This document shows positions 6,076 through 64,000 of a stretch of DNA of 64,000 nucleotides, piece by piece. Each line of letters opens with the position of its first letter. Within the stretch, counting starts at the first letter, position 1. Origin of the DNA: Trypanosoma brucei. Lineage: Eukaryota. Where the stretch lies: the NCBI GenBank assembly GCA_000002445.1, contig CM000208.1, forward strand, positions 320,001-384,000. The letters run 5' to 3'. The position numbers were made by a program, and so were the translations under genes. A model generated the notes under the pieces. It was given only the letters and a program-made list of their open reading frames with translations, was not told the origin of the DNA and ran no database searches.

Positions 6076-7299
6076 AGAAAATAAACAATTCCTCCCTGTG
6101 TCACGAAACTGACCTGCATGGGTAAATCATTACATAGAGGTAACTACTTATTGGACCCGTCCCACTACGTAGTTATGCTGGAGAGGAAAGGATTGGGGCT
6201 CCGATCTCGGGAAACGGCACGTGCTCTATACATCTCTTCCTCCAAATAGATAGAAGTTAATAGAACATGCAAGCAGACAGCAGATGAGCGGAGAACTCAA
6301 AAGAAACTTCAAGCTAAATTGGATACTCGTACAATTTTGCAGCAGAAAACAAAATCCATTGATGTCAAAAAAAAAGCGACTGGAAAATGCTGTAGAGGCA
6401 ACCAACAACTGGCGGTGCTAACAATGAAAACGCCATCCCACATCAAAACATCAGACATCAGCCATATGCTAGAGCGATGAAAAAAGTGAAGACCTATATG
6501 ACCTCAACCCGAGGTATTGAATGAAAACTGTTGTCCGCAGCAGCCGCAACACACAATAAGGGTTTCCCACAAACAAACCCCATGAGACATAATATCTGCA
6601 ACATCAAGACAAAAGAAAAATCGTTCAAACAGCAATTTGAAAACAACGTAGTGAACGCGGGTGAAGGTACTCGTTAATGCGCATAGGGCATGCTGCGGTT
6701 CGATTTTTGAACACAAGCGGGTATAGCCATTCTCAGCCGCCACCACTTGGAGAGGCAAACACTCACGTCCGCAACGAAATCGTCCAACTAACAAGGACTG
6801 TACCTTAAACTGACGATGCCTTCGGCTACGGCAGTGGGGTTGCTGTGAGCACAGTAATCGTTGTTCCCTGCTCGGCAATAGAACCAGCTGATGTCCCCCG
6901 TAACACATTTAGAGTTGCATCGGAAAGAGCGCAGTGCAAAGCCACCGAGGGCTACATGTGAGACCTCCCGCTTCACAAATATCATAGTAATACATGCAGA
7001 AATAGCCATCAGCACCGTCGGTGACGATCAACAACAAGCGGTCTCCGACCTCTTCTCTCCGCACCTTTACGCCGAACATCACTATCGCAGAGATTGTCGG
7101 AGAACACTCTCGAGGTGCTGACCAGAACCACGGCAAACCAAAAAAGTTTCCGTTCATAAAACCCGACCCCTACCCTGCGACCATGATGAACAGTGGGCCC
7201 ATTCACAGCACGTCAGCATTGCACCTAGTTTATAAACACTGATCGCACTTTGAGGACCCTGGGCGACTACACCAAGTTACTTACAACGGCCAATCACAA

Positions 7300-28820: not shown

Positions 28821-29286
28821 TTCGATCGTTGCCTCAATAGTCTACTCGATAGATCGACGCCACTTTCCTGTCCTTCCTTTTACCTCTTTAGGTCCACTTG
28901 ATACTCTATTGAAGCTTTTCCCCACTTGAAGCAAAGTCCAGGGACCTCGTACGAGGGTGGCAGTGAGCGAACCATTCAAATAAAAAGAAAAGAGGAAGGG
29001 AAAACAAATGCGCCCCAAACAACGTATGGACAAACTACAGTGAGATCGCCAGAGGCACACACGCAACACTTACACCACAAGACGGCAAAGAGGAACTTGA
29101 TTACACGTCCAAGTGTGCGTCCGTATGTTACCAGTAATGATTCGACCGTATTAAGTCAGGTATTTCCACCAAGGAAGTTCGTTACAGCATGGATAAAGGC
29201 AATGGACCCTAACAGTGCAGCCAACCTTACAGCGTCTAATCGTAACTACACCACGGGAAAGAGAAAGAAGAAACAGCCTGTAAATA

Positions 29287-31539
29287 CTACGACAGGCGAG
29301 AGGCGCCAATGCCCTTCTTTCTTATCTTCAGCGTGCGTTTGTCCTCCGGATGATCATCTGAGGTCAAAGAATCGGGGACTACTGCACCAGTTCCATTCCT
29401 TGTTGCAGTGCCATGCAGACGTAGTTTCTGTGGTTTCATTTGTATTTCTTCCCCCCAAGACTCCTCATCGTCCTCACGCACAGACGGCGACGATTGTGAA
29501 CCCCACACTTTCTGTGGGAATGGGGACGCTTTCGACGCTGCTGGTATGGAGTTTTCCATCCCCCCCTTTGTGGTGGATTCCAATTGAATGACACTACTGC
29601 TACCACTGCTCCCCCAACCTTTTGTATCCAACGCCGCGTTACTGCCCTTTACCTCATTTCCGGCCCCGTTTGTATTGTTGTTAACAACCCCAGCAGGGGG
29701 AATGACATTACCTTCATTCGCTGTACTCGACGATATTTCCCTGTGGTTCGCATCTAAGCGGGAAACGGCGGCATGTATGACGTCCAAGGCCACTGCTCGC
29801 ACCTCTGCCACTTTATCCATGGAAAGCGGGGAAACACCTGGAATCACCAACTCTGCGATATCTTGCGCGGTGAAGTGCTTCAATGTTGTGTGAAAAGAAC
29901 GAAGGGCCGCGGTACGGCTGGGAGCAAAAGGATCCTTCAACATCCTACCAAACCTTTGGGCGAACAGTTTTGACCTATACTCCGCTGGAATGGTGTCAGC
30001 AATCAAACAAAGGGCGATGGTGGCATTCGTGCGAATAGGGCCCTCAGAGTCCTGCTGCAACTGGGCAATATACTTTGGAACATCATTTACGATCCTTTTT
30101 TCCGTCAGCAAAGGCGCGATAGGAACGAGGGCCCTAGCACTGTGCTCTCGAATAGCCGCTATCGGACTCTCAAAACCTGAAGCATATTCGCTCCACACCT
30201 CACCATCGACGACGGCAGGCGGCATTTGCGGAAGCAGCTCTGCTGCGTGTTGAAGGATCCGCAACCTAACCATTCTCTCCTTAGAGCGAAACAAAGCTAC
30301 AATAACCGGGGAGACATGAGTCGCATATTCCTCCGGTGACGGCATCCGAGCCGCTATCTTCACCACCGTATCCACGACACCAGGTAATATCCCGAAAGTA
30401 AAGGAAGCCCGAAGTTTCTGGAGCACCAGGTGCTTACAAGCATCCCTGGGAAATGTGTGGACGACGTTCGCGAGGTGTTCCATGAACCGCTCTCGCTCCG
30501 CAGCATCCTTTAGGGAATAGTCATCTAGCATTTGCATAGATTGGACGTAGTCACTTGAGATGATGAAATCGCTTGTTCGCAGGAATCGATCTACATCATG
30601 TCTCATTTTCGGATTAACTGCGCAAAGCCCGCTGAAGCCACTTTGCAGAGTCCGTGGAAGTGTTCGACAGCTACGCAGATCTTCTGTACTACAAGACTGT
30701 GACAACTTGCCTGAGGTCTGATCGTTCACTCCCAGAACTTCGTATATGAGACAGGCCAATCCCCACGAATCGATAGCGCACGTTTTCCCACCGCTCTCAT
30801 AGTTCGTGTGCTGCGTTTCTGGCGGACGGCGGTACGCCGGAAGTAACGAACAATATGAAAGATATGAACTTCCAACGTCATCAAAACCGCTAACAAGCTC
30901 AAGACCAAAGAGCCTCCACTCGCCGGTCGAGATAACAAACACGGAGTCACGCCCTACGTTTCCGTGAATCAACTTATTCTTGTGAAGTGCACTCACGGCG
31001 GATCCAACGGCCTTCAGCCCCAATGCAACAATGTCATTAAAGGCTTCACCCTCATCATCGTCATCACCAGACGTGGCTAAGGGACTCCCCATTTGTCCAC
31101 ATTTCATTTTACTCAGTGGTTCACAAGGCTCGGTGGCAAGATACACCGTGTCTCGGTGTTCAGCAGCCCCATAGCAACGCAATATACCAGGAAGAAGCAA
31201 GCTCTTAGCCCTCTTCATTGCATGGCGTACTAACTCCCTTTTCCGTGGCTCCATATCTGCCAAATTCACGGAAAATATTGTGACGGATCGCTTGCTTTCA
31301 TCACATTCACCCTGCCGCATGGTCCATGTGATGGTCGGAGTGTCAGCAGTAGTGGTGCTGGAACCACTGCACGGAGTGTAGGGGAATCCTGGTATGGATT
31401 CCGTGAAACCAATCGCCCTCAGGAGGAAGGCCATATATTTTTTTTTTGAGAAGGGTAATGTTTCTCCGCTTTTCCACGGAGCCGCTTTTCTAATATTTAA
31501 AGTACTACAGCAAAAATAACAGCAAACCTTCTTAACCAC
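29287..31539 (-). CDS. SCY1-like pseudokinase (N-terminal kinase-like protein) with C-terminal HEAT repeats. The real start is probably the internal Met at MAFLLRAIGF.
   Basis: 750-aa ORF. It has a kinase-like fold but the catalytic loop is KLIHGNVGRDSVFV rather than HRD, as in SCYL1. HEAT-like repeats follow, then a Ser/Gly/Asn-rich tail. Confidence 0.6.
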   Translation of the reverse strand: MVKKVCCYFCCSTLNIRKAAPWKSGETLPFSKKKYMAFLLRAIGFTESIPGFPYTPCSGSSTTTADTPTITWTMRQGECDESKRSVTIFSVNLADMEPRKRELVRHAMKRAKSLLLPGILRCYGAAEHRDTVYLATEPCEPLSKMKCGQMGSPLATSGDDDDEGEAFNDIVALGLKAVGSAVSALHKNKLIHGNVGRDSVFVISTGEWRLFGLELVSGFDDVGSSYLSYCSLLPAYRRPPETQHTNYESGGKTCAIDSWGLACLIYEVLGVNDQTSGKLSQSCSTEDLRSCRTLPRTLQSGFSGLCAVNPKMRHDVDRFLRTSDFIISSDYVQSMQMLDDYSLKDAAERERFMEHLANVVHTFPRDACKHLVLQKLRASFTFGILPGVVDTVVKIAARMPSPEEYATHVSPVIVALFRSKERMVRLRILQHAAELLPQMPPAVVDGEVWSEYASGFESPIAAIREHSARALVPIAPLLTEKRIVNDVPKYIAQLQQDSEGPIRTNATIALCLIADTIPAEYRSKLFAQRFGRMLKDPFAPSRTAALRSFHTTLKHFTAQDIAELVIPGVSPLSMDKVAEVRAVALDVIHAAVSRLDANHREISSSTANEGNVIPPAGVVNNNTNGAGNEVKGSNAALDTKGWGSSGSSSVIQLESTTKGGMENSIPAASKASPFPQKVWGSQSSPSVREDDEESWGEEIQMKPQKLRLHGTATRNGTGAVVPDSLTSDDHPEDKRTLKIRKKGIGASRLS

Positions 31540-36835: not shown

Positions 36836-38788
36836 TCACGAAACCCTAGTGACAAATCGGCTGTCGTCTGTGCAGTGGACCAATTCCTCTCCATCGATCC
36901 AGTGTTTGGTAGCCGGATACTTCGAGTCACGTGGCGGTGAATACGAGAGCCTACGCGGCAGCAGTGACGTGTTGGGCGTACCGTCTGTGAGTGGAGTCCT
37001 GTTTTGCCATATTTGACTCCATGGTGAAGCGCTGCCACTCTGTGCCTCCTTTTCGTCCACCCTGAGCTCGTTATCCTCCCTCATTTTGGGGGACGTGAGG
37101 GGAATAGGATTTTTAATGCGAGTGAAAGCCTTGTACTTTCTCTGCTGTTGCTGTCTTCGTTCATCCTGCTTTTGCACCATATCCCGCAACATATTCAACA
37201 AGTCGTTCGTTGTACGGCCTTGAGGGTTGCTGCTAGCAGTCGATTCCGGCATGGGCCACTGCCTCGCCACGTTGACAGCGTCCGCACCGTCCGGAGAGTC
37301 ACGGAGCGTTTTGTTGCTCATGTCTCCCCCGTTTGTGTCTTCTGCAGTTAAATAATCCCTTTGCAATGGTTGGCGATGCAGGACCGAGGGGTCACTTACT
37401 CTTATCCTCGGCTTGTCATCCGTAACAACGCTGTAAGCACTCGCGTCCGACTCATCCTCAGGAGTTAGGTCAGATACCTCCACATGAACCGTTTTCCCCT
37501 GATCCGGCTTGTCAGTTAGCGGGGTAGACAAACGAGGAACCCGCGGGTCTACAGAATCGTGGAGTGGAACGGGAGGTGACAGCCTTCGCCTTTCCTTCTG
37601 TCTTTGTTGCTCCATCACGTGGGACAAGAAGGCAGCGCTGACAGTTTCATCCATCACACATGAAGCAACGGCACCAACGGATGCTGAAAGCGTGGAACAG
37701 TTAATGAAATCAACAGTGTCTACTGCGGTGTCACCCGCTCCCGGATCCATCATAGATAAATGAGGGGTGAATGTTTCGGCACTATCCACATACTCTCGCC
37801 GATCCCTCTGTTGTCCTGACTCTTGTTGCAACTGCCGGTGTTGCTGCATGGGAGGGTCATGTTCCACCCCTCGGGCCTCATCTTTCATGCAGGCTGCTGT
37901 GTCCAAACCATCGGTACCATCACCCGACACGGGTTTACCTCCAGAAGGGCAATGCTGGGGGCCGTATTTGCAGTCGTGGTTTGTGGTTGCATCCCCTGCG
38001 GATATTTCACCAGCAGCGGACGTGCCCGTGAGTGAACACGGGTCAATTCGCCGAGTTTGTGTGACCTCGACATGGACAGGAGTGGCGATGGACAAGCTGC
38101 TCTCGCTTCCGGGTTGCAACTCCCTCCTGCTCGTTCGGCTGCAACATTTAGAGCGTTGAGGCGGAGGGGAAGACGAGTGGACCATGCTGCACGGTGCCGA
38201 TACGGAAAGGGAAAATCTTCCCTGCGGCCAGTGTAGTGCGCCAATATCACAGGTCTCGGTGCCTCCGACACTATTAAGCGTATTACATTCCCCAGATACT
38301 TCCGCACTGATCTCCGTAGCCCCGTCATCCACAACCATGGAAATTTGGCTGATTTCTCGCGCTGGCGATAACATTCCTCCACTCATCGAAGAGCGCACGG
38401 ATTCCGCAGACAAACTGGCTTCCACAGCTTCTCCCACAGCAGATGAGGAATCGTTTCCTCGGGGCTCCGACTTTTCGCTCGGTTGGGCGGGTAGGGTCTC
38501 AGAGGATCGACGAATGCTCAGCGGAACAGAGGTAAGAGAGAGATCGTCCGCCCTCTCTGGTGCCGCTTCCTTACCAGAGCATGAAGTGAATTTCTCACAG
38601 TCCACACCATCGGAACAATTGCCGTCATTTACTATCGCAGGCACGCGAGGCCCACTGCTAGACCGCCCTGCGGAGCCATTGTCTTCCCTGTCAGGTGCAG
38701 TTACCGTTTCTGCCGGTTTCTCTTTCTTCACCTGTTTGTCCTCGGCCACATCGCCTTCTCGAGAGCATTTGGTGCACGCGGCTCCCAT
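36836..38788 (-). CDS. Ser-rich low-complexity protein with an N-terminal dual-acylation motif (MGAACTKCS)
   Basis: 650-aa ORF. Gly2 with Thr6 fits the N-myristoylation consensus, and Cys5 and Cys8 are palmitoylation candidates. The rest is S/D/P-rich and predicted to be disordered. Confidence 0.4.
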   Translation of the reverse strand: MGAACTKCSREGDVAEDKQVKKEKPAETVTAPDREDNGSAGRSSSGPRVPAIVNDGNCSDGVDCEKFTSCSGKEAAPERADDLSLTSVPLSIRRSSETLPAQPSEKSEPRGNDSSSAVGEAVEASLSAESVRSSMSGGMLSPAREISQISMVVDDGATEISAEVSGECNTLNSVGGTETCDIGALHWPQGRFSLSVSAPCSMVHSSSPPPQRSKCCSRTSRRELQPGSESSLSIATPVHVEVTQTRRIDPCSLTGTSAAGEISAGDATTNHDCKYGPQHCPSGGKPVSGDGTDGLDTAACMKDEARGVEHDPPMQQHRQLQQESGQQRDRREYVDSAETFTPHLSMMDPGAGDTAVDTVDFINCSTLSASVGAVASCVMDETVSAAFLSHVMEQQRQKERRRLSPPVPLHDSVDPRVPRLSTPLTDKPDQGKTVHVEVSDLTPEDESDASAYSVVTDDKPRIRVSDPSVLHRQPLQRDYLTAEDTNGGDMSNKTLRDSPDGADAVNVARQWPMPESTASSNPQGRTTNDLLNMLRDMVQKQDERRQQQQRKYKAFTRIKNPIPLTSPKMREDNELRVDEKEAQSGSASPWSQIWQNRTPLTDGTPNTSLLPRRLSYSPPRDSKYPATKHWIDGEELVHCTDDSRFVTRVS

Positions 38789-39513
38789 CCTTCACTCTAG
38801 TGCGAATCAATAGTCTGATTACTGCTTGGGTAAGACAAAAAGAGTAAAAACAAGTAGAATTACAGAAACATTCATTCAGTCCACGTGAACTTACAGAAAT
38901 AAAGGGAGGCATGCATTGACAAGCGAGTGAACAGCGGCCAAGGGGAAAACGGCACAAGCTTCCCCCATTGCACTTCGACTGCATCACCCCGAAGCGGAAC
39001 TGACTACCTCATCCGCGCGAACAGTAGCCCCACACGCGCCTGTACGTATGTAGCTCAAAGAAGGGCCAATCCATTCAGCCACATCGTGAGGAATACTAGC
39101 ACTCACTAGAAGTAACGGGGAGCGAAGGGAGAATGTATCGAGCGCAATAGAGGAAGCACGAGAAAATGTTGTGTAATTTATCCTTCTAGGTACCGCTCCA
39201 CCCACAAAATCCTCCTGGCACCGCGACCCAATAACCCCACAAACTGCTCCCTTCCTGCCATCCGCTGATGGGACTTCACACCATGCAGAGGGGGGCGCAC
39301 AAAAGGTCTCGGTGGGCAGTGAAGCACCCATACACTGGTTTACCACACAACAGCAACGATAAATCCAAACATAAATTCTAGCAATGAAACTGGGTAAGAG
39401 GATGTGGCGTCTCGGCGTCACACAGCCGTCACCATTCTGATACAGAGAAACGCCCAAACTGCAGGCTTCAACCAGGTGCGGCCACCGCTGCTATTACTTC
39501 TCTGCAGCAACAG

Positions 39514-45935: not shown

Positions 45936-46640
45936 TTACAATTTGCTCGGGTACCGTTTCGCATACTCCGGTTTTAAAACAAAGACGTGACGGTAGTTCC
46001 TGTACCTGTCATTCACCTCGAAGCCGTAACCAACCACGTATCTAGTTGGTGCAGTCAGGCAAACAAATTCGGGCTTAAAGTCCACAACGCGACCACCGGG
46101 CTTGTCCACAAGTACGCACACCTTCAAACTGGCAGGTCGGTACTCCCGGCGGATCTTCTCCACCAAAAGCTTCATTGTACGCCCCGTGTCGGCAATGTCT
46201 TCCATAATAAGTACATGTTTCCCCGTTAATTCAGTGAAGCGCAGGTTATCCAGCACCTGCACGGTGCCACTGCTTTTCGTGGTTCCCCTGTATGAAGTAA
46301 TGCGTATAAAGTCCACAACGTTAGGTAGCCCACAGTCTCCAAGGTAACGAACCATGTCTGCCGTGAAAATATAACTGCCCTTCAGGACAGAAATAATAAT
46401 TAGTGGATTTTCATCGGTGATTGGGGCCAATGCGCTATTACCCTTATTGTGGGTATCGCGGTGCTTAAGTGTCTTGTAAGCGTTGGCAAGCGTCTGTGCC
46501 ATTTCCTTCATGCTTCGGTGAATTGTGCTCTCCGTGGCGACAACACTTTCCGCCATGGGATATGATCTGCCATCAACCGTAACATTTCCGTCAGCATCCC
46601 TGCCAACAAAGTTCGGTTTGAGAGGATGGCCCGAGTGCAT
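45936..46640 (-). CDS. Hypoxanthine-guanine(-xanthine) phosphoribosyltransferase paralog carrying a C-terminal PTS1 (SKL), so probably glycosomal. The true start is probably an internal Met.
   Basis: 234-aa ORF with the PRPP-binding motif VLIMEDIADTGRTM. It is about 70% similar to the downstream HGPRT through the core and ends in ...RYPSKL. Confidence 0.85.
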   Translation of the reverse strand: MHSGHPLKPNFVGRDADGNVTVDGRSYPMAESVVATESTIHRSMKEMAQTLANAYKTLKHRDTHNKGNSALAPITDENPLIIISVLKGSYIFTADMVRYLGDCGLPNVVDFIRITSYRGTTKSSGTVQVLDNLRFTELTGKHVLIMEDIADTGRTMKLLVEKIRREYRPASLKVCVLVDKPGGRVVDFKPEFVCLTAPTRYVVGYGFEVNDRYRNYRHVFVLKPEYAKRYPSKL

Positions 46641-47843: not shown

Positions 47844-48503
<660 letters not shown>

Positions 48504-51031: not shown

Positions 51032-52423
51032 TTAGTAGTCGTCGCCCTTAGAAAGGATTTCCTTTGCGGTAGGTTTCAAAATAAGAGTATGCTCCAGTTG
51101 AGCAGTGTAGCAGCCACGTATGTCACAGAGGGGTGGGTATTTGTTCACTGCACCAGCCTCCACCAACTGGTTCAAATTCAGCAGATGCCTGTCGTGCCCG
51201 TCACGGTCCAACCACTTTCTCGCGAAGGCCAGCGTGTTGTATGTTTTATGAATGTGCCTTAGCAACTGCTGCGCCTTGTCCGAACGTACCTGTGTCTTTT
51301 CGCCCCCTGGTACCATCATGTAATGCGAGCATTCCATGTCCTCCTGCACGAACCCACGACCAGTGGAGCCGAATGTCTCGATAGCGAACAACTCGCCTTC
51401 TTCCATGCGTGTCGCCTCTCCACCACGTACAATCGGCACCGACTTTCCCCCATGAATGACATATGGCGCAATGGTATGCCCCGAGAGGTTTCGTATACTC
51501 TTCACGGGGTACACCTTCCCATTCAGTTCCACTTCATAGGACTCCATTACCTCCTGAATTGCCGCCCCAACATCACACAGTCGTACATCGATGCCAGCCT
51601 GCTTAACACCCTCATATGTCGCCTCCTTAACCGCGGTAAGCAAAGGCTCGTACTCGTCCTTGAAAGCAACCGTCCAGGCGCAGTCAATAATTCTACCGTT
51701 AATCTGAGTCCCAAAGTCCACTTTCATAACATCGTCATACATCAACACGCATTTATCACCAGTGTTCGGTGTGTAATGAGCAGCGACGTGATTGAGCGAG
51801 CAACCTGTTGGAAACGCCTGACCGCGATTAAGGCCATCCTTCTCAATAAGTTCCTCCAGCTTCTTTTCAATGCGGTCAGTCATGCTGAGGAGAGAAATAC
51901 CGGGCTTTATGAAGCTTTGGGCGTAGCGGCGCACCTGTCGATGCACTTCGGCCGCACACCGCAGGTCCTGCACCTGTTCCTCAGTCGCGTGCTCCATTGC
52001 ACGTTTCTCCTCGCTGCTGTAGCGGTACGCATTAACCTCACCAGGATGCTCACAAATGATACCGACAGGAAAATTGCCCCTCGCAAACTGCTGACTGACG
52101 GGAATAGTCGGTTCCGGCCACGTCTGCCGCTTCATTCCTTCCGCCACTTGTGGGTACGGGTTGTCGGGGTGGTCAGCGGTGCTGACAACCTTCGGGTCGC
52201 TGGCGTCATTGTTGTCATTCGCTTCCCCATTGCTCTCCTGCTTACTCGTTCGTTGCTTTCCTTTTTGTGCCTTTTTGTTAGCGTCACCACCTTGTTTGTC
52301 TTTGCTCACTTGAACCTCTTGCAACGCTTTGGCCAGTTGTGCATCGAAATCAGCTTCATCATCCTTGCATTTCTTACCGCCCTGTTGCTTCTTTGAGCCC
52401 GCTCCCCCGCCTTTAGGTGGCAT
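51032..52423 (-). CDS. Methionine aminopeptidase 2
   Basis: 463-aa ORF with the Lys-rich N-terminal block typical of MetAP2. It also has the pita-bread fold signatures (FPTGCSLNHVAAHYTP, the D...D...H...E...E metal ligands context, NLSGHTIAPYVIHGGKSVP). Confidence 0.85.
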   Translation of the reverse strand: MPPKGGGAGSKKQQGGKKCKDDEADFDAQLAKALQEVQVSKDKQGGDANKKAQKGKQRTSKQESNGEANDNNDASDPKVVSTADHPDNPYPQVAEGMKRQTWPEPTIPVSQQFARGNFPVGIICEHPGEVNAYRYSSEEKRAMEHATEEQVQDLRCAAEVHRQVRRYAQSFIKPGISLLSMTDRIEKKLEELIEKDGLNRGQAFPTGCSLNHVAAHYTPNTGDKCVLMYDDVMKVDFGTQINGRIIDCAWTVAFKDEYEPLLTAVKEATYEGVKQAGIDVRLCDVGAAIQEVMESYEVELNGKVYPVKSIRNLSGHTIAPYVIHGGKSVPIVRGGEATRMEEGELFAIETFGSTGRGFVQEDMECSHYMMVPGGEKTQVRSDKAQQLLRHIHKTYNTLAFARKWLDRDGHDRHLLNLNQLVEAGAVNKYPPLCDIRGCYTAQLEHTLILKPTAKEILSKGDDY

Positions 52424-53462
52424 GCACGCGGTCCTTTTCCTCTTTGGAATGTGCTGAGCCAGTGTCGCCGTGTAGTCGGCAGTTTATGTGTGGAGTAAAG
52501 CATTACAAAGAAAGTAGAAAGAAAGAAAAAGTGCGAGGTAATGCACATACACACAAAACTGATGAATATAAAACTAAATCGCGCGGGACTGGGTTTTTTA
52601 TCGGCAACAATGCAAAAGCAAAATGTCAAAGAGCGGAGAGCATACGGTGAAGACAAGGCGGCAACCACACGATGTGCACACACTGACACATAGTATGGAT
52701 CGCTCAACATGCGCATACAAAAAAAGAGGAAGAAAGAAAGAAAGATAGAGAGAGAGCAACCAAACAAAACCAAATAAAAGAAGATGGGGCGACATATAAA
52801 TATACTCAAAAGCTGCACACCCCGATCCTTTTCCCTCTCCATATCGGAGACATTTAGTGGCATCGCTCGCATCCTTCACAAGCACATACGCCGCACACGA
52901 GAGTTTTCAGTGTTTCCCTACCCACAAACACGTATATTGGAGGGTAACAGAGGAAAGATTGTTCTTATCCGTTTATTTAAATCCCCAGTATCACCACGGT
53001 CGGTCTCCCTTCCTGTGGTTTTTGCCCGGGTAGTAAGAGAGGGAAAGGGAAAGAGGTAGTGAAAATATTCAGCGTTGGACTGAAGTACATAGGTAAAGAA
53101 AGAGAGGAAGAAGAGCAGTTGAGGGACATTCGTGAATTTCCCACGCTTTTTCATTCCCTTCCCTCCCATCCGTGTACCCCACCCCCATTCGTTACTATTA
53201 TTGCCGTTTCTCCGTGACTTCTCGTTGGCCGGAATATATTCATATTTTTAAAAACCTAATGCACCTGACATTTTGTTTTTTGTTTACCTTTTCCACAGCG
53301 TCTTTAACGACACCCCTTCTTTCCTGTTTTTCTCTTGCCCATTCTTCATGATCTCGCTTAGCCCCGGTATAAATAAAGCAACAAGAAACAAGTAAAAAAA
53401 ACTAGCAATAACAATACCAGACAGTACTGATGGTACAAGAAGGAAAATTCATTGAACTTTAT

Positions 53463-55584: not shown

Positions 55585-55956
55585 GGAGTTTATTCGCTAG
55601 CTATATCCACCTCTAGTGCACTCGTACGGCACACGCATACACACACAAAGGCAATCGCGTTTCTTTGGCTTATTTTGCTTCGCTACCCCTCCACTCTGAA
55701 AAAAAAAATATTCCACCTTCCTTGCGACACAGCTTCCTGTATCTCCAAGTGCTTTCCCTTTTCCACTGCTACAGCCACTTACACCTGATCTGTGAAAAAG
55801 AGAAAAAAAAACTACAACACTAATCCAGAGCCCCGTGGCGCAACAAGTCCGTGCGGTTAGAAGAAAATAAAGAAATGGGTGAAGGGAAAAGTCAATAACT
55901 CTTGAACACCTTTGGAGTCCGAATTGCGCAACAAACATTAACCGGGTTTCTATCCT

Positions 55957-55972
55957 TCCCCCCCCCCCCCCC
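55957..55972. repeat. C16 homopolymer (G16 on the transcribed strand)
   Basis: cttcccccccccccccccctc in the intergenic region upstream of the twin-Cx9C gene. Confidence 0.9.
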
Positions 55973-56452
55973 TCAATGCATATAGCGGGGGGAGTTCGGA
56001 GTCTCCTTAAACAAGCAAAGTAACTGAATGCCACTGAAATTATCCATAATAGGGGCAAATGTTCATATATGAGAGAAGCAATTAAAAAAGGCACAATAGA
56101 AAGCGCAATAAACGAGAAGACACGTTGCCGCAAGAACACCCCGCTGACACGAAACCAAACGGCAACTATACATCCAACCAGTGTGAAACCACACCAGATC
56201 AGATATATATGTCTACAGATACACAACAACACAAGTTGGGTACAAGTCCTTCAATTTCTCTCTGCCGTTGTGAAAGGTCAGTCCGCATATTTCATTATAA
56301 CAGCAACGTCGGTCGCGTCGTCACGTGGAAGGGATGGTCCGTGTGGTAGAAAGTAGGAAACCATGACCCGCAACCGCGGGAAAGGAAGTGCAGAAAACAA
56401 CCCATAATAACAACGTCTGCCACCGCTTGCTTATGAAAATGGAACCCACGGT

Positions 56453-57002: not shown

Positions 57003-60000
57003 TCATCTGGCATCCGTGCTTTCATCCCCTCCCCCACTAACACGTTCTTTAGGAGTAGCAGCTGATGAGAAATTCAGTACGGCTTCCGGATTTGTACTGG
57101 AGTTCGGTGAAACCTCCGCATTCGCAGGGTCCCGGGATCCCGACCCCGTGCTGTCAGTGCTAGGCTCCCGCACCACCCGCGAGAGGCGACCGAGTCGGAG
57201 TAACAAGTTATGCATTATATTGTTCAACAATAATTCCCTCTGATCCACCGGCGCCAAGGCTTTCGAGCCAAGTTGTGCGTTCCTTGCTTCTTGCACGACA
57301 TGTACAATAGCGGTCTTCATCTCGCTGTACAACGACTCCACCTGAGCCTCTCTTTCCTCTAGGAGCAGAGATTTCTGTGCCACAATGTTTCGCAGCCGTG
57401 CAATCGACTTCTGGCTCGCTGACCCTTGCGTTTTTTGGGAGTCGCAACATCCGGCAGGTGCTGAAGTTAGGGAACAAGTTTCTCGCGTACCACATTCTCT
57501 CTGTGGAGTGTACGGCACACTCGGGGATTTTTGTACACTACATTCATCGCTGCAGCTCCGCAGAAATTTGAGTCCCGTTTCATGCAGATACCCCCGCTCC
57601 TGTGCAAGGAGCTCCTGGTATTCGCGCAGCTGAAGCCGGACAGCCCTGATCTGCTCGTGGTTGCTTGTCCTCTCCACCTGCAACATACTTATCGTGTCCC
57701 GCATGGCGTTTTGCTGAGCCTCCGCCTCTTCTAAGGTGTGGCGCCACTTGCTGAGCTCCTCCCGTGCACCATTCAGCGTTTCCTGGGCAGCTTGTATTTC
57801 ACTTTCATAGGACTCCCGCTGCCACTGTATCTCATTTTGCAGCCGTTCCTTCTGTTGATTACACCTCTCGAGATTTTGCTTGATCCGTTCGGTCTCTTGG
57901 GCGGCACCCACTTGCTCCCGAACCAACTGCTCCCTATCGGCAACCAGTCCGTCGTGAGCCTCCTGCAGTTGCTTGACCTCAAGCTGTAGCGCCTCCACTT
58001 GCTCATTGAGCTGCTGAACGCGGCGGTTGTGCATTTGTTCTGCATTTTGAGTTGTATCGGCCGCTTGACGAAGGCGCTCCTTCAGTTCGTCGCAACACCC
58101 CTGAAGTTCACAATTCTTCCGTCGTACGTGATCTACCTCTTCTTGTAGAGCTGCTTTACGTGGTTCGAGAGCAGCAATACGCATTTCGGCAGCCCGCAGA
58201 GCTGCGGCGGCTTCCTCGACCTGAAGGGTGCTCGAAGATTCCAACTCACATAACTTTCCATTTAAGCGTTGGGCATCACTTTCTTGCTGTGTTGCTCGCA
58301 TACGCAACCGCTCCAACTCGGTTTCAGCAACGGCCAACTGCGCCTTCAACGAATCCAATTGGGCCTGTTGCTCTTTGCAGGATTCTCCCAACTTCGTGTT
58401 GGCTTCCCGTAGCTCCTCCACAGTTGCAGTGAGGGCGTCTGCCTGTCGACGGGAGGCTTCTTCAGCTGTACGGTTTCTCTGGGTCAACAACTGTACTTCC
58501 TGCGTGGCATCAAGCAGCTGAGACTCCAGGGAGTCCCGTTCCGTTTCGGCACGCTCAAGACGGGGAATAACGCGATCAAGACTTGACTTGGTTGACCGCA
58601 GCTGTTTCTCCAAGTCTTCGCGCGAACACTTGCACTGGTCAACCTCCTCCAATGCTGCTGCGAGTTTCTGCTCCGTTAGTTCGAGTAGTTCACGAGAGGT
58701 GTGCGTCTTTTCCCTCAGCGCCTCCTGAAGCCGAACAACCTCCCGTCGCTGTTCGTCCTCAACATCTGCTGCTGTTTTCTTCAGTTCGGAAAATAGGTGC
58801 AGGACGTTTGCGTTCTCAGTTTTCACGAGTTCCATCTTGTGTAAAGAGTTTGCATACTCGACCTTGACCACCTCCATCTCATGCTGTGTGGCGTCAAGTT
58901 TTTCATGTAACTTTCTTATAACCTTGCTGTGCTCCTCCTTATTGGAACAAAGTTCAGACTCAACTCTTTCTGAAGAGGCTTTGAATGTAGCAACTTCCTG
59001 CTGAAGTTCAGTAATTTGACGTAGCAGACCTTGTCGCTCCACCTCCGCACCCTCAACAACGGCCATGAACTCTTCGCACTGCCGCTCACCCTCGATCATA
59101 GCATCACTGGCTGCTCGCTCAATAACATCGCAACGACTAAGCAATTTACGTTGGAAGTTTACGTGGTGCCGTACAAGGTATTCATGCGCGTCCAAAACAG
59201 CCCTAAACAGATATTCCACAACGAGAGGTATTGTCAGCACCTTCTCGGCAAAGAGGTCTTCGACAACGTTATGCTTCAGCGTGGTATGATCCAGCTCCGC
59301 AGTGTGTACCTCTTTCTCAGAGCCTCCATTCTCGCTGTGCAAACGTGACTGTTCTTCCCTTTGCAGTTCAACACGATTTCTCGTCACATCCGGCAACGTT
59401 TGACAATCCTCAACGCGCAACTCGGCTTCATTACTATCATCAAGTGGAACCACGCCATCATCTACCTGGCAACTCTTGTTGCATTTAGACTGCTTGCGGC
59501 AGATCACCAAGTTACCCATGCCGATATCATCGGGAATGTCCCCACTAAAATTACAGTACGATAAACCATTTAAGTTCCCATAATCAACCCTTTCACCATT
59601 TTCTCGATCCTCGGTCATATCAACAAAAGACCGACACACAACGCCGATTGCTTCCGGGGAATCAGTTTGCACCCGCGAGGACACCTTTTCAGAACCCTTC
59701 AATACATCGACACAGTGACTACCATTTCCGACAACCTCCCTATGAGAAATGCAGCATTCCGCTTCTTTAGCACCGCAGTCAGCGGTCTCTAGATTTATAC
59801 AAGGTAAACAACTATCTGCACCCAAAAGCGATCTAACACTACCAACACTACTTGAAGTAGAAGCAACAAAAACAGTAACACCACAATATCCACGAGTTCC
59901 ACCTGCCTCCTGTGTCACATTAGCTAATTCTACTTGCTGCCTTTCTTCCAGTTCACGAAGTTCTTCCTTTAACTGATCGTTACAAGCTTGGAGAGCATTA

Positions 60001-63000
60001 AGGCGTTCAAGAATGGCATCATCCGACTCGTTACCTGTGCGGCACGTTTCAAGTTCTTCAAGAAACTTCGCCTCCTGCTCAGCCTTGTATTCCTCCAATT
60101 TCTGTCTGAGAAGTTCATCATGCTCAGCGATACGGTCAGCTGCTTCCTGTGTCACATTAGCTAATTCTACTTGCTGCCTTTCTTCCAGTTCACGAAGTTC
60201 TTCCTTTAACTGATCGTTACAAGCTTGGAGAGTATTAAGGCGTTCAAGAATGGCATCATCCGATTCGTTACCTGTGCGGCACGCTTCAAGTTCTTCAAGA
60301 AACTTCGCCTCCTGCTCAGCCTTGTATTCCTCCAATTTCTGTCTGAGAAGTTCATCATGCTCAGCGATACGGTCAGCTGCTTCCTGTGTCACATTAGCTA
60401 ATTCTACTTGCTGCCTTTCTTCCAGTTCACGAAGTTCTTCCTTTAACTGATCGTTACAAGCTTGGAGAGTATTAAGGCGTTCAAGAATGGCATCATCCGA
60501 CTCGTTACCTGTGCGGCACGCTTCAAGTTCTTCAAGAAACTTCGCCTCCTGCTCAGCCTTGTATTCCTCCAATTTCTGTCTGAGAAGTTCATCATGCTCA
60601 GCGATACGGTCAGCTGCTTCCTGTGTCACATTAGCTAATTCTACTTGCTGCCTTTCTTCCAGTTCACGAAGTTCTTCCTTTAACTGATCGTTACAAGCTT
60701 GGAGAGTATTAAGGCGTTCAAGAATGGCATCATCCGATTCGTTACCTGTGCGGCACGCTTCAAGTTCTTCAAGAAACTTCGCCTCCTGCTCAGCCTTGTA
60801 TTCCTCCAATTTCTGTCTGAGAAGTTCATCATGCTCAGCGATACGGTCAGCTGCTTCCTGTGTCACATTAGCTAATTCTACTTGCTGCCTTTCTTCCAGT
60901 TCACGAAGTTCTTCCTTTAACTGATCGTTACAAGCTTGGAGAGCATTAAGGCGTTCAAGAATGGCATCATCCGATTCGTTACCTGTGCGGCACGCTTCAA
61001 GTTCTTCAAGAAACTTCGCCTCCTGCTCAGCCTTGTATTCCTCCAATTTCTGTCTGAGAAGTTCATCATGCTCAGCGATACGGTCAGCTGCTTCCTGTGT
61101 CACATTAGCTAATTCTACTTGCTGCCTTTCTTCCAGTTCACGAAGTTCTTCCTTTAACTGATCGTTACAAGCTTGGAGAGTATTAAGGCGTTCAAGAATG
61201 GCATCATCCGATTCGTTACCTGTGCGGCACGCTTCAAGTTCTTCAAGAAACTTCGCCTCCTGCTCAGCCTTGTATTCCTCCAATTTCTGTCTGAGAAGTT
61301 CATCATGCTCAGCGATACGGTCAGCTGCTTCCTGTGTCACATTAGCTAATTCTACTTGCTGCCTTTCTTCCAGTTCACGAAGTTCTTCCTTTAACTGATC
61401 GTTACAAGCTTGGAGAGTATTAAGGCGTTCAAGAATGGCATCATCCGACTCGTTACCTGTGCGGCACGTTTCAAGTTCTTCAAGAAACTTCGCCTCCTGC
61501 TCAGCCTTGTATTCCTCCAATTTCTGTCTGAGAAGTTCATCATGCTCAGCGATACGGTCAGCTGCTTCCTGTGTCACATTAGCTAATTCTACTTGCTGCC
61601 TTTCTTCCAGTTCACGAAGTTCTTCCTTTAACTGATCGTTACAAGCTTGGAGAGTATTAAGGCGTTCAAGAATGGCATCATCCGATTCGTTACCTGTGCG
61701 GCACGCTTCAAGTTCTTCAAGAAACTTCGCCTCCTGCTCAGCCTTGTATTCCTCCAATTTCTGTCTGAGAAGTTCATCATGCTCAGCGATACGGTCAGCT
61801 GCTTCCTGTGTCACATTAGCTAATTCTACTTGCTGCCTTTCTTCCAGTTCACGAAGTTCTTCCTTTAACTGATCGTTACAAGCTTGGAGAGCATTAAGGC
61901 GTTCAAGAATGGCATCATCCGACTCGTTACCTGTGCGGCACGCTTCAAGTTCTTCAAGAAACTTCGCCTCCTGCTCAGCCTTGTATTCCTCCAATTTCTG
62001 TCTGAGAAGTTCATCATGCTCAGCGATACGGTCAGCTGCTTCCTGTGTCACATTAGCTAATTCTACTTGCTGCCTTTCTTCCAGTTCACGAAGTTCTTCC
62101 TTTAACTGATCGTTACAAGCTTGGAGAGCATTAAGGCGTTCAAGAATGGCATCATCCGATTCGTTACCTGTGCGGCACGCTTCAAGTTCTTCAAGAAACT
62201 TCGCCTCCTGCTCAGCCTTGTATTCCTCCAATTTCTGTCTGAGAAGTTCATCATGCTCAGCGATACGGTCAGCTGCTTCCTGTGTCACATTAGCTAATTC
62301 TACTTGCTGCCTTTCTTCCAGTTCACGAAGTTCTTCCTTTAACTGATCGTTACAAGCTTGGAGAGTATTAAGGCGTTCAAGAATGGCATCATCCGACTCG
62401 TTACCTGTGCGGCACGCTTCAAGTTCTTCAAGAAACTTCGCCTCCTGCTCAGCCTTGTATTCCTCCAATTTCTGTCTGAGAAGTTCATCATGCTCAGCGA
62501 TACGGTCAGCTGCTTCCTGTGTCACATTAGCTAATTCTACTTGCTGCCTTTCTTCCAGTTCACGAAGTTCTTCCTTTAACTGATCGTTACAAGCTTGGAG
62601 AGTATTAAGGCGTTCAAGAATGGCATCATCCGACTCGTTACCTGTGCGGCACGTTTCAAGTTCTTCAAGAAACTTCGCCTCCTGCTCAGCCTTGTATTCC
62701 TCCAATTTCTGTCTGAGAAGTTCATCATGCTCAGCGATACGGTCAGCTGCTTCCTGTGTCACATTAGCTAATTCTACTTGCTGCCTTTCTTCCAGTTCAC
62801 GAAGTTCTTCCTTTAACTGATCGTTACAAGCTTGGAGAGTATTAAGGCGTTCAAGAATGGCATCATCCGATTCGTTACCTGTGCGGCACGCTTCAAGTTC
62901 TTCAAGAAACTTCGCCTCCTGCTCAGCCTTGTATTCCTCCAATTTCTGTCTGAGAAGTTCATCATGCTCAGCGATACGGTCAGCTGCTTCCTGTGTCACA

Positions 63001-64000
63001 TTAGCTAATTCTACTTGCTGCCTTTCTTCCAGTTCACGAAGTTCTTCCTTTAACTGATCGTTACAAGCTTGGAGAGTATTAAGGCGTTCAAGAATGGCAT
63101 CATCCGACTCGTTACCTGTGCGGCACGCTTCAAGTTCTTCAAGAAACTTCGCCTCCTGCTCAGCCTTGTATTCCTCCAATTTCTGTCTGAGAAGTTCATC
63201 GTGCTCAGCGATACGGTCAGCTGCTTCCTGTGTCACATTAGCTAATTCTACTTGCTGCCTTTCTTCCAGTTCACGAAGTTCTTCCTTTAACTGATCGTTA
63301 CAAGCTTGGAGAGCATTAAGGCGTTCAAGAATGGCATCATCCGATTCGTTACCTGTGCGGCACGCTTCAAGTTCTTCAAGAAACTTCGCCTCCTGCTCAG
63401 CCTTGTATTCCTCCAATTTCTGTCTGAGAAGTTCATCATGCTCAGCGATACGGTCAGCTGCTTCCTGTGTCACATTAGCTAATTCTACTTGCTGCCTTTC
63501 TTCCAGTTCACGAAGTTCTTCCTTTAACTGATCGTTACAAGCTTGGAGAGTATTAAGGCGTTCAAGAATGGCATCATCCGATTCGTTACCTGTGCGGCAC
63601 GCTTCAAGTTCTTCAAGAAACTTCGCCTCCTGCTCAGCCTTGTATTCCTCCAATTTCTGTCTGAGAAGTTCATCATGCTCAGCGATACGGTCAGCTGCTT
63701 CCTGTGTCACATTAGCTAATTCTACTTGCTGCCTTTCTTCCAGTTCACGAAGTTCTTCCTTTAACTGATCGTTACAAGCTTGGAGAGCATTAAGGCGTTC
63801 AAGAATGGCATCATCCGATTCGTTACCTGTGCGGCACGCTTCAAGTTCTTCAAGAAACTTCGCCTCCTGCTCAGCCTTGTATTCCTCCAATTTCTGTCTG
63901 AGAAGTTCATCATGCTCAGCGATACGGTCAGCTGCTTCCTGTGTCACATTAGCTAATTCTACTTGCTGCCTTTCTTCCAGTTCACGAAGTTCTTCCTTTA
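57003..64000 (-). CDS. Giant coiled-coil protein, partial (N-terminus beyond the window). At least 17 tandem 79-aa repeats are followed by a ~950-aa non-repetitive coiled-coil C-terminal region.
   Basis: The ORF is open from 57003 to the window edge. Repeat unit: ANVTQEAADRIAEHDELLRQKLEEYKAEQEAKFLEELEACRTGNESDDAILERLNALQACNDQLKEELRELEERQQVEL. The C-terminal region is E/Q/L/R-rich heptad-like sequence. Confidence 0.75.
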   Translation of the reverse strand, partial: KEELRELEERQQVELANVTQEAADRIAEHDELLRQKLEEYKAEQEAKFLEELEACRTGNESDDAILERLNALQACNDQLKEELRELEERQQVELANVTQEAADRIAEHDELLRQKLEEYKAEQEAKFLEELEACRTGNESDDAILERLNTLQACNDQLKEELRELEERQQVELANVTQEAADRIAEHDELLRQKLEEYKAEQEAKFLEELEACRTGNESDDAILERLNALQACNDQLKEELRELEERQQVELANVTQEAADRIAEHDELLRQKLEEYKAEQEAKFLEELEACRTGNESDDAILERLNTLQACNDQLKEELRELEERQQVELANVTQEAADRIAEHDELLRQKLEEYKAEQEAKFLEELEACRTGNESDDAILERLNTLQACNDQLKEELRELEERQQVELANVTQEAADRIAEHDELLRQKLEEYKAEQEAKFLEELETCRTGNESDDAILERLNTLQACNDQLKEELRELEERQQVELANVTQEAADRIAEHDELLRQKLEEYKAEQEAKFLEELEACRTGNESDDAILERLNTLQACNDQLKEELRELEERQQVELANVTQEAADRIAEHDELLRQKLEEYKAEQEAKFLEELEACRTGNESDDAILERLNALQACNDQLKEELRELEERQQVELANVTQEAADRIAEHDELLRQKLEEYKAEQEAKFLEELEACRTGNESDDAILERLNALQACNDQLKEELRELEERQQVELANVTQEAADRIAEHDELLRQKLEEYKAEQEAKFLEELEACRTGNESDDAILERLNTLQACNDQLKEELRELEERQQVELANVTQEAADRIAEHDELLRQKLEEYKAEQEAKFLEELETCRTGNESDDAILERLNTLQACNDQLKEELRELEERQQVELANVTQEAADRIAEHDELLRQKLEEYKAEQEAKFLEELEACRTGNESDDAILERLNTLQACNDQLKEELRELEERQQVELANVTQEAADRIAEHDELLRQKLEEYKAEQEAKFLEELEACRTGNESDDAILERLNALQACNDQLKEELRELEERQQVELANVTQEAADRIAEHDELLRQKLEEYKAEQEAKFLEELEACRTGNESDDAILERLNTLQACNDQLKEELRELEERQQVELANVTQEAADRIAEHDELLRQKLEEYKAEQEAKFLEELEACRTGNESDDAILERLNTLQACNDQLKEELRELEERQQVELANVTQEAADRIAEHDELLRQKLEEYKAEQEAKFLEELEACRTGNESDDAILERLNTLQACNDQLKEELRELEERQQVELANVTQEAADRIAEHDELLRQKLEEYKAEQEAKFLEELETCRTGNESDDAILERLNALQACNDQLKEELRELEERQQVELANVTQEAGGTRGYCGVTVFVASTSSSVGSVRSLLGADSCLPCINLETADCGAKEAECCISHREVVGNGSHCVDVLKGSEKVSSRVQTDSPEAIGVVCRSFVDMTEDRENGERVDYGNLNGLSYCNFSGDIPDDIGMGNLVICRKQSKCNKSCQVDDGVVPLDDSNEAELRVEDCQTLPDVTRNRVELQREEQSRLHSENGGSEKEVHTAELDHTTLKHNVVEDLFAEKVLTIPLVVEYLFRAVLDAHEYLVRHHVNFQRKLLSRCDVIERAASDAMIEGERQCEEFMAVVEGAEVERQGLLRQITELQQEVATFKASSERVESELCSNKEEHSKVIRKLHEKLDATQHEMEVVKVEYANSLHKMELVKTENANVLHLFSELKKTAADVEDEQRREVVRLQEALREKTHTSRELLELTEQKLAAALEEVDQCKCSREDLEKQLRSTKSSLDRVIPRLERAETERDSLESQLLDATQEVQLLTQRNRTAEEASRRQADALTATVEELREANTKLGESCKEQQAQLDSLKAQLAVAETELERLRMRATQQESDAQRLNGKLCELESSSTLQVEEAAAALRAAEMRIAALEPRKAALQEEVDHVRRKNCELQGCCDELKERLRQAADTTQNAEQMHNRRVQQLNEQVEALQLEVKQLQEAHDGLVADREQLVREQVGAAQETERIKQNLERCNQQKERLQNEIQWQRESYESEIQAAQETLNGAREELSKWRHTLEEAEAQQNAMRDTISMLQVERTSNHEQIRAVRLQLREYQELLAQERGYLHETGLKFLRSCSDECSVQKSPSVPYTPQRECGTRETCSLTSAPAGCCDSQKTQGSASQKSIARLRNIVAQKSLLLEEREAQVESLYSEMKTAIVHVVQEARNAQLGSKALAPVDQRELLLNNIMHNLLLRLGRLSRVVREPSTDSTGSGSRDPANAEVSPNSSTNPEAVLNFSSAATPKERVSGGGDESTDAR
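59903..64000. repeat. Tandem array of 237-bp units (period 237 = 79 codons), at least 17.3 copies, near-identical, continuing past the window end
   Basis: Plus-strand shadow ORFs recur every 237 nt from 60013 to 63568. The units differ at only about three nucleotide positions (gagcattaag/gagtattaag; cacgcttcaag/cacgtttcaag; ccgactcg/ccgattcg). Confidence 0.95.

What the first reader, a model, noticed from the sequence alone, without database searches (positions are those of the whole stretch)
57003..64000. Giant coiled-coil protein gene with an N-terminal array of near-identical 79-aa repeats
At least 17 head-to-tail copies of a 237-bp unit. The reading frame is conserved through all copies. 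Each unit encodes a highly charged, predicted alpha-helical 79-aa module with two conserved cysteines (EACRTGNE and QACNDQ). The array is fused to a ~950-aa non-repetitive heptad-rich C-terminus. The nucleotide units are almost identical, with only three variable sites, two of which change an amino acid (A/T). This implies ongoing concerted evolution or very recent expansion. The protein may be larger still, because the array continues past the window edge. Proteins of this architecture in kinetoplastids are usually cytoskeleton- or flagellum-associated and are often immunodominant repeat antigens. I do not recognise this particular 79-aa unit.
Basis: partly seen in the sequence, partly recalled or inferred. 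Interest (0 to 1): 0.8.

Follow-up and report, generated by a model that had tools for sequence, protein, structure and literature searches.

The report
Known trypanosome Golgi tether gene CAAP1
The repeat-filled giant gene is real, but it is the already characterised Trypanosoma brucei protein CAAP1 (Tb927.10.1450), a long coiled-coil scaffold that links the Golgi to a flagellum-associated cytoskeletal bar, so it is a known gene and not a new discovery.

Summary
Window 59903-64000 (minus strand) carries 17.3 in-frame copies of a 237-bp (79-aa) unit at 99% identity, followed by 968 non-repetitive codons and a stop at 57003.

The window is T. brucei brucei TREU927 chromosome 10. [quoted passage not shown]

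Published work localises CAAP1 to the bilobe/centrin arm and the Golgi periphery. It shows that kinesin KIN-G recruits CAAP1 and that CAAP1 is needed for Golgi-centrin arm association and Golgi biogenesis.

- The array is central, not N-terminal. About 486 non-repeat residues lie beyond the window edge.
- There are four variable nucleotide sites, not three.
- Only about 570 of the 968 C-terminal residues are helical and heptad-rich.

What seems unreported:
- Array copy number differs between assemblies (18, 12 and 9), with array-wide fixed differences, which indicates concerted evolution.
- Orthologues across Trypanosoma carry homologous modules with an invariant core, RIAEHD(E/D)LL(R)(Q/H)KLEE. 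Leishmaniinae repeats keep only the shorter RIAE core.
- The family carries conserved NPF (plus DPF in Leishmaniinae) motifs.
- The "plectin" label and the published "Lava Lamp homologue" claim are not supported by my searches.
- I found no evidence of antigenicity.

The parts
57003..64000 (-). 3' 6998 nt of the CAAP1 (Tb927.10.1450) coding sequence, covering residues 542-2872 of the 2872-aa protein plus the stop codon. The first 541 codons lie beyond the window edge.
   Evidence: ORF and translation. Exact match to P0005 = EAN77575.1/Q38C95 from residue 542 onward.
59903..64000 (-). Tandem array of the 237-bp (79-aa) unit. It has 17 full units (59970-63998), a 67-nt partial unit (59903-69) and 2 nt of an 18th unit at the window edge.
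   Evidence: TRF: 17.3 copies, 99% matches. Unit-by-unit table with 4 variable sites. AF2 on 3 units shows 74-77-residue helices broken at CRTGNES.
59265..59909 (-). Post-array linker (residues 1-215 of the 968-aa C-terminal part). It is rich in Cys, Pro and Gly, is predicted to be disordered, and is poorly conserved between species.
   Evidence: No heptad signal and 13 Cys. pLDDT around 30 with no secondary structure. Orthologue matches start at about residue 165-217.
57543..59264 (-). Conserved non-repetitive coiled-coil core (residues 216-789 of the C-terminal part). This is the only region shared with all trypanosomatid orthologues.
   Evidence: phmmer best stretches cover about 217-772 in T. 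vivax, T. cruzi, T. rangeli, T. melophagium, Porcisia, Novymonas and Leptomonas. Strong a/d heptad pattern. Long helices in AF2.
57006..57542 (-). C-terminal tail (residues 790-968): a disordered stretch, then a helical block at residues 834-914 (window 57168-57410), then a disordered Ser/Pro-rich end.
   Evidence: AF2 secondary structure. Heptad scan. P0039 matches residues 824-944. Tail alignment.
57003..57005 (-). Stop codon of CAAP1.

Best explanation

Shown by others: CAAP1 is an experimentally characterised coiled-coil scaffold of about 320 kDa. [quoted passage not shown] The orphan kinesin KIN-G recruits it there. It is required to keep the new Golgi attached to the centrin arm and hence for Golgi biogenesis.

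Inferred here: the 18 x 79-aa array forms a very acidic, segmented alpha-helical rod. Each unit is a helix of about 74 residues with a short break at CRTGNES. If extended, each unit is about 11-12 nm long, so the array is about 200 nm. The rod separates an N-terminal part bearing an NPF motif from the conserved C-terminal coiled-coil core. It also displays a family-invariant RIAEHDELLRQKLEE motif many times, which could be a repeated docking site.

Shown here by comparing strains: the near-identity of the DNA units is maintained by unequal crossing-over or gene conversion (concerted evolution). This also changes copy number between strains.
For: Identity:
- Six proteins encoded in the window, including the 871-aa C-terminal part of this gene, are found by exact sequence in Trypanozoon records. 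The MetAP2 and HGPRT-I sequences match TREU927 entries (EAN77572.1, EAN77570.1), and the 871-aa part clusters with the full-length TREU927 protein EAN77575.1/Q38C95, 2872 aa.
- The window translation equals residues 542-2872 of Q38C95.
- Gene order relative to Tb927.10.1390.1400 and .1470 places the gene at .1450.
- PMC9585242 lists Tb927.10.1450 = Q38C95 = CAAP1, and the bioRxiv preprint 10.64898/2026.04.03.716285 gives the same name.

Function:
- The protein was recovered in TbPLK BioID. McAllaster et al. (PMC4551316) list it as bilobe-localised and credit it to Morriswood et al. 2013.

Architecture:
- AF2 shows long helices broken once per unit.
- The C-terminal part is a disordered linker followed by a helical core of about 570 aa.

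Concerted evolution:
- Copy number is 18 motifs in TREU927, 12.0 units in DAL972 and 9.0 units in T. b. equiperdum.
- Substitutions are fixed across every unit of one strain's array and absent from another's, for example L66F in 11 of 12 gambiense units and 0 of 18 brucei units.

Module conservation:
- Homologous units occur in T. melophagium (80 aa, 52% identity), T. cruzi, T. vivax and the MetaClust protein P0001, all with the invariant RIAEHD(E/D)LL core.
Against: - No experiment addresses the repeat array itself. The CAAP1 paper I read does not mention it.
- The rod/spacer and docking-site roles are inferences from sequence and from a single-chain AF2 model of moderate confidence (pLDDT 75).
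- 79 is not a multiple of 7, and each unit has net charge -13, so a canonical uninterrupted dimeric coiled coil is not assured.
- Copy numbers come from assemblies of near-identical repeats and may be collapsed or mis-estimated.
- The orientation of the molecule (which end faces the Golgi) is unknown.
Confidence: 0.9

Rival explanations
1. The array is mainly a multivalent binding platform and not a passive spacer. Each unit would present the invariant RIAEHDELLRQKLEE motif to a partner (KIN-G, a centrin-arm component or a Golgi matrix component), so copy number would set avidity.
For: The 15-residue core is 100% identical between T. brucei and P0001, whose C-terminal regions are only 45-50% identical. 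It is also kept in T. vivax, T. melophagium, T. theileri and, as RIAEHDDLLRHKLEE, in T. cruzi. An RIAE core persists in Leishmaniinae repeats.
Against: No binding data exist. Conservation could reflect a coiled-coil trigger or stability element. Strains tolerate 9-18 copies. This idea is compatible with the spacer role and does not exclude it.
Confidence: 0.3
2. The array is an immunodominant tandem-repeat B-cell antigen or immune decoy.
For: Large near-identical repeats in intracellular cytoskeletal proteins of trypanosomes are often seroreactive. This is general knowledge (for example GM6 and the MARPs) and was not tested here.
Against: No paper links this protein or its motif to serology. 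The protein is intracellular and has a defined cell-biological role. Insect-only or non-pathogenic relatives also carry such arrays (Novymonas, Leptomonas), which argues that the arrays are not an adaptation to vertebrate immunity.
Confidence: 0.07
3. The array is an assembly artefact, with only a few real copies.
For: Near-identical 237-bp repeats are hard to assemble. The T. equiperdum OVI contig breaks 127 nt into the array. Copy number differs between assemblies.
Against: Three independent chromosome-scale assemblies each contain an in-register array of 9-18 units, with strain-specific fixed variants and interspersed variant units. Orthologues in every trypanosomatid examined have arrays too.
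Confidence: 0.03
4. The protein is an orthologue of Drosophila Lava Lamp (as published) or a plectin (as the database names say).
For: PMC11633155 reports 22.7% identity and 53.2% similarity to Lava Lamp over about 94% of the length. NCBI and UniProt name several orthologues 'plectin'.
Against: An exhaustive phmmer search of the C-terminal 968 aa against 1.84 billion representatives gives only 14 hits. The 11 whose origin I looked up are trypanosomatid or unnamed sequencing-read or metagenome assemblies, and none is a metazoan protein. No Pfam domain of any kind (plakin, plectin repeat, spectrin, CH or GRIP) is found in the N-terminal part, the repeats, the C-terminal part or two orthologues. 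About 23% identity between two charged coiled coils is what composition alone would give.
Confidence: 0.05

Closest known systems
CAAP1 / Tb927.10.1450 (UniProt Q38C95), T. brucei centrin arm-associated protein 1
   Same: Identical sequence over all 2331 window-encoded residues, and the same chromosomal neighbourhood.
   Different: Nothing differs: this is the gene itself. The published descriptions I could read do not discuss the 79-aa array, its strain polymorphism or the conserved motifs.
Golgins (long coiled-coil Golgi tethers such as Drosophila Lava Lamp, GMAP-210 and giantin)
   Same: It works in a similar way. It is a very long, mostly helical peripheral Golgi protein that links the Golgi to a cytoskeletal element through a motor: KIN-G here, dynein for Lava Lamp (PMC11633155).
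   Different: No detectable sequence homology outside the trypanosomatids. No GRIP, GRAB or other Pfam anchor domain. It has a central near-identical tandem array, which canonical golgins lack.
Repeat-containing trypanosome cytoskeletal giants (FAZ1, FAZ10/Tb927.7.3330, ClpGM6, MARP1)
   Same: These are large, charged, helical, flagellum- or cytoskeleton-associated proteins with near-identical tandem repeats. Several were co-recovered with CAAP1 in TbPLK BioID.
   Different: The repeat unit is different (79 aa here; no sequence similarity was tested or claimed). The localisation differs (centrin arm/Golgi interface versus FAZ or subpellicular corset).
Sfi1-type centrin-binding repeat proteins
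   Same: An elongated helical protein with many repeats that is associated with a centrin-containing structure.
   Different: The Sfi1 consensus needs a conserved Trp (general knowledge), and the 79-aa unit contains no Trp at all. [quoted passage not shown]
Plectin/plakins (the name attached to orthologues in databases)
   Same: Only size and predicted helicity.
   Different: No plakin, spectrin, CH or plectin-repeat domains were detected.

Membership tests
CAAP1 (Tb927.10.1450, Q38C95) | Amino-acid sequence identity to the reference protein | tested here: met
   The window translation equals residues 542-2872 of P0005 (EAN77575.1/Q38C95) exactly, including the order of A/T variant units.
CAAP1 (Tb927.10.1450, Q38C95) | Genomic position on chromosome 10 between Tb927.10.1440 and Tb927.10.1460, in the HGXPRT (.1390) to HGPRT-II (.1470) interval | tested here: met
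   The neighbours are EAN77569-77574, in order. HGXPRT = .1390, HGPRT-I = .1400 and HGPRT-II = .1470 according to PMC5843355. PMC9585242 maps Tb927.10.1450 to Q38C95.
CAAP1 (Tb927.10.1450, Q38C95) | Localisation at the centrin arm/Golgi periphery and KIN-G dependence | not testable with these tools
   Taken from the literature only: PMC4551316, PMC11633155 and PMC12239596.
Golgins | Predominantly long coiled-coil/helical architecture | tested here: met
   AF2 helices in the repeat units and at residues 216-789 of the C-terminal part. Heptad scan.
Golgins | Recognisable C-terminal Golgi-anchoring element (GRIP or GRAB domain, or a transmembrane anchor) | tested here: not met
   No Pfam family reaches its cut-off on the C-terminal 968 aa. 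The tail is a helix followed by a disordered Ser/Pro-rich end.
Lava Lamp orthologue | Statistically significant sequence similarity to the Drosophila protein | tested here: not met
   phmmer of the C-terminal 968 aa against 1.84 billion representatives gave 14 hits. The 11 looked up are trypanosomatid or unnamed sequencing-read or metagenome assemblies. The N-terminal 486 aa had no hits and the repeat unit hit only T. theileri in the indexed search. No direct pairwise or profile test against Lva was possible.
Plectin/plakin | Plakin domain, spectrin repeats, CH domains and plectin repeats | tested here: not met
   Pfam scans of the N-terminal part, 4 repeat units, the C-terminal part, and the T. 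cruzi and Leptomonas orthologues found none of these.
Tandem-repeat B-cell antigens of trypanosomatids | Seroreactivity of the repeat with infection sera | not testable with these tools
   No literature hit for the motif, the accessions or the gene in an antigen context.
Sfi1-like centrin-binding repeats | Repeat consensus with a conserved Trp | tested here: not met
   The 79-aa unit has no Trp (unit sequence). The consensus itself is recalled from general knowledge.

The most novel reading that the evidence does not exclude
CAAP1 may be more than a passive coiled-coil tether. It may be a trypanosomatid-specific multivalent adaptor built from an ancestral two-part module: an NPF-acidic linker (NPF plus DPF in Leishmaniinae), which is a ligand type for EH domains and adaptor appendages, followed by an RIAE helix.

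Different lineages have amplified different parts of this module. T. brucei amplified only the helix, 9-18 times. T. vivax and T. cruzi amplified the whole module about 20 times.

On this reading, copy number, which changes quickly through concerted evolution, would tune the length or valency of the centrin arm-Golgi link and couple it to the vesicle-trafficking machinery.
Probability: 0.2. Interest if true: 0.5.

Novelty: already known. Interest (0 to 1): 0.2.

Why it matters
As a discovery it matters little. The gene is annotated in the reference genome, named, localised and functionally characterised.

Its residual value is descriptive:
- The central 79-aa array, its copy-number polymorphism between Trypanozoon strains and its array-wide homogenisation are not discussed in the CAAP1 literature I could read.
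- The database label "plectin" and the published "Lava Lamp homologue" claim look like coiled-coil composition artefacts and should be treated as analogy, not homology.
- The published RNAi fragment (nt 4142-4556) falls inside the array if TREU927 gene coordinates were used.

Tried and rejected
- Pfam on the C-terminal part, 4 repeat units, the N-terminal part and two orthologues gave nothing above the cut-offs. The sub-threshold AMP-binding_C, Cupin and DUF hits on the repeats are repeat-inflated noise.
- The PDB sequence search of the C-terminal part gave no hit.
- The indexed homology search was nearly blind. The C-terminal query returned 1 hit, the N-terminal query 0 hits and the repeat query 1 partial T. 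theileri hit. Only the exhaustive phmmer search recovered the orthologue set.
- A full-text search for the peptide motif and for the protein accessions found nothing beyond one proteomics table.
- A search for tandem-repeat antigen literature found nothing on this gene.
- Morriswood et al. 2013 (PMC3571296) and Pham et al. 2020 (PMC7489904) are not held, so I could not read the first localisation or naming reports.
- Rfam, tRNA and other tandem-repeat scans of the window found nothing relevant.
- I did not run fold searches. Models of isolated long helices give meaningless matches.
- I considered and rejected a functional role for the two cysteines, such as a disulfide-stapled rod. They are not conserved in T. 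cruzi or P0001, and only the first is kept in T. melophagium.

Full report
**Observation.** Tandem Repeats Finder reports a single array at window 59903-64000, with period 237 bp, 17.3 copies, 99% matches and no indels. The minus strand is open from the window edge to a stop codon at 57003-57005, and no other ORF of 150 aa or more, on either strand, overlaps 57003-64000. Splitting the array in register gives 17 complete units (59970-63998) and a 67-nt partial unit.

Among the full units only four nucleotide positions vary:
- position 86 (synonymous, one unit);
- position 159 (A54T, three units);
- position 179 (synonymous, seven units);
- position 210 (T71A, six units).

The 79-aa unit is 42% charged with net charge -13.

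**Where the window comes from and which gene this is.** All ORFs of 200 aa or more, except a few antisense overlaps, lie on the minus strand, as expected for a kinetoplastid polycistronic cluster. Six proteins encoded in the window, including the 871-aa C-terminal part of this gene, are found by exact sequence in Trypanozoon records. The MetAP2 and HGPRT-I sequences match TREU927 entries (EAN77572.1, EAN77570.1). The 871-aa part falls in one cluster with the full-length TREU927 protein EAN77575.1/XP_822403.1/UniProt Q38C95, which is 2872 aa. The window's 2331-residue translation is identical to residues 542-2872 of that protein.

The gene identifier follows from gene order. HGXPRT is Tb927.10.1390, HGPRT-I is .1400 and HGPRT-II is .1470 (PMC5843355), which places the giant gene at Tb927.10.1450. 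[quoted passage not shown]

**What is already known about CAAP1.**
- Tb927.10.1450 was recovered in TbPLK BioID, and McAllaster et al. 2015 list it as bilobe-localised and credit it to Morriswood et al. 2013 (PMC4551316).
[quoted passage not shown] - A 2025 paper finds CAAP1 again in KIN-G and WDR2 BioID (PMC12239596).

The "undescribed protein" reading fails.

**Architecture, corrected.** The full protein has about 486 non-repetitive N-terminal residues, which lie beyond the window edge. These are followed by 18 RIAEHDELL-containing units and then 968 C-terminal residues. The array is therefore central, not N-terminal.

AlphaFold2 on three units (single sequence, pLDDT 75) gives helices of 74-77 residues interrupted once per unit at CRTGNES.

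The C-terminal 968 residues are not uniformly heptad-rich:
- residues 1-215 are rich in Cys, Pro and Gly, show no a/d periodicity and have pLDDT around 30;
- residues 216-789 are long helices with a strong heptad signal;
- residues 790-833 are disordered;
- residues 834-914 are helical;
- the last roughly 55 residues are disordered.

**Relatives.** The word-indexed protein search was almost blind. An exhaustive phmmer search of the C-terminal 968 aa against 1.84 billion representatives gave only 14 hits. Besides T. b. gambiense (P0003) and the MetaClust protein P0001, I looked up ten of them. Eight are from T. vivax (two entries), T. rangeli, T. melophagium, T. cruzi, Porcisia, Novymonas and Leptomonas. 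The other two are an unnamed sequencing-read assembly and a JGI metagenome protein. The two weakest hits (P0039, P0040) were not looked up. The shared region is residues about 217-772, the coiled-coil core.

The T. cruzi orthologue EAN84241.1 has an accession adjacent to EAN84242.1, which is the orthologue of the downstream 215-aa gene. This suggests conserved synteny, though it is inferred only from accession order.

No Pfam domain is detected anywhere in the protein or in two orthologues. Two labels are therefore unsupported here. One is the database name "plectin". The other is the published description of CAAP1 as a "close homolog/ortholog" of Drosophila Lava Lamp, based on 22.7% identity. 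Resemblance to golgins is functional analogy. I could not run a direct profile comparison with Lava Lamp.

**The repeat in evolutionary context** (I did not find this in the literature I could read; one search shows the CAAP1 paper never mentions repeats).

Copy number and sequence differ between Trypanozoon assemblies:
- TREU927 has 18 motifs.
- T. b. gambiense DAL972 has 12.0 units.
- T. b. equiperdum GCA_003543875.1 has 9.0 units, one of which carries a 2-bp deletion that splits the ORF. This explains the truncated 871-aa "plectin" annotation.
- The T. equiperdum OVI contig simply ends 127 nt into the array.

Each array carries substitutions present in essentially all of its own units and absent from the other arrays. 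For example, C195T (L66F) is in 11 of 12 gambiense protein units and in 0 of 18 brucei units, and G135A is in the equiperdum units only.

Orthologues all have their own arrays with different periods:
- 59 aa in P0001;
- 80 aa in T. melophagium, 52% identical to the brucei unit;
- composite units of 173 or 246 aa, about 21 copies, in T. vivax;
- composite units of 237 or 159 aa in T. cruzi, whose protein length ranges from 2323 to 5861 aa between strains;
- 61-82 aa in Leishmaniinae.

Across Trypanosoma the core RIAEHD(E/D)LL(R)(Q/H)KLEE is invariant or nearly so, while the rest of the unit drifts. The two cysteines are not conserved.

[quoted passage not shown] The rest is my inference.

The array probably forms an acidic, segmented helical rod. 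At about 0.15 nm per residue each unit is about 11-12 nm long, so 18 units span about 200 nm. The rod would separate the N-terminal part from the conserved C-terminal core. The invariant motif, repeated many times, may act as a docking or coiled-coil trigger element. Copy-number changes would alter reach or valency. I rate the identity and the general scaffold function at about 0.9, and the specific roles proposed for the array much lower.

**Rivals.** A pure docking-platform role is compatible with the data and untested. The immunodominant-antigen idea has no support, and similar arrays occur in monoxenous insect parasites. An assembly artefact is very unlikely, because three chromosome-scale assemblies carry strain-specific arrays, although the exact copy numbers need long reads to confirm.

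**Verdict.** It counts as "already known" and is of low interest as a discovery. There is modest added value in the repeat-evolution and motif observations and in the corrections to the homology labels.

Noticed in passing
Outside the window (P0005 residues about 411-445, roughly 90 aa upstream of the array); orthologues P0030, P0033, P0054, P0035, P0036, P0038: A conserved NPFA motif followed by an acidic patch occurs in the CAAP1 family. T. brucei has a single copy (LNPFAKMVIQGEASQPRVEDDDDAVVFGVG). T. vivax has 24 copies and T. cruzi 4-19 copies, inside their composite repeats. In Leishmaniinae the motif reads NPFADAEDPFG (NPF plus DPF) inside each repeat, just before an RIAELEAA helix. NPF and DPF are classical ligands of EH domains and adaptor appendages (general knowledge). 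The motif is not mentioned in the CAAP1 paper.
   Followed up: partly
L005 about 4202-4436 (T. b. equiperdum GCA_003543875.1, CM010681.1): One of the nine 237-bp units is 235 bp long. This splits the CAAP1 ORF into 2021-4357 and 4488-8588 and explains the truncated 871-aa 'plectin' annotation. It could be a long-read consensus error or a genuine frameshift in this tsetse-independent lineage.
   Followed up: partly
Window about 59444-59858, if TREU927 gene numbering applies (nt 4142-4556 of the CDS = residues about 1381-1519, inside the array): The published CAAP1 RNAi fragment (415 bp, nt 4142-4556; PMC11633155 methods) would lie wholly inside the tandem array in TREU927 coordinates, covering about 1.75 units. 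The authors may instead have used a strain 427 gene model with a different copy number.
   Followed up: no
Window 45936-46640 and 47844-48476 (minus strand): Two 6-oxopurine phosphoribosyltransferase paralogues lie downstream: HGXPRT (Tb927.10.1390, ending in the glycosomal signal SKL) and HGPRT-I (Tb927.10.1400). The near-identical third copy, HGPRT-II (.1470), lies beyond the window on the other side of CAAP1, so CAAP1 sits inside a segmentally duplicated interval.
   Followed up: partly
Window 55597-56232 and 52306-52872 (minus strand); 51323-52396, 4271-5074, 28926-29591 and 38184-38813 (plus strand): Several long ORFs in the mechanical ORF list are probably not genes. Some are Cys/Phe/Leu-rich translations of intergenic pyrimidine-rich sequence. 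Others are antisense overlaps of real genes (for example 51323-52396, antisense to MetAP2). None was called as a gene in the public annotations of the same locus.
   Followed up: no
C-terminal tails of orthologues (alignment): T. cruzi, T. rangeli, T. melophagium and the Leishmaniinae share a tail motif, LQE...(D/A)E.Y.L.PFNELL. It is only weakly recognisable in T. brucei (DQRELLLNN) and absent from T. vivax. It could be a lineage-variable anchoring element.
   Followed up: no
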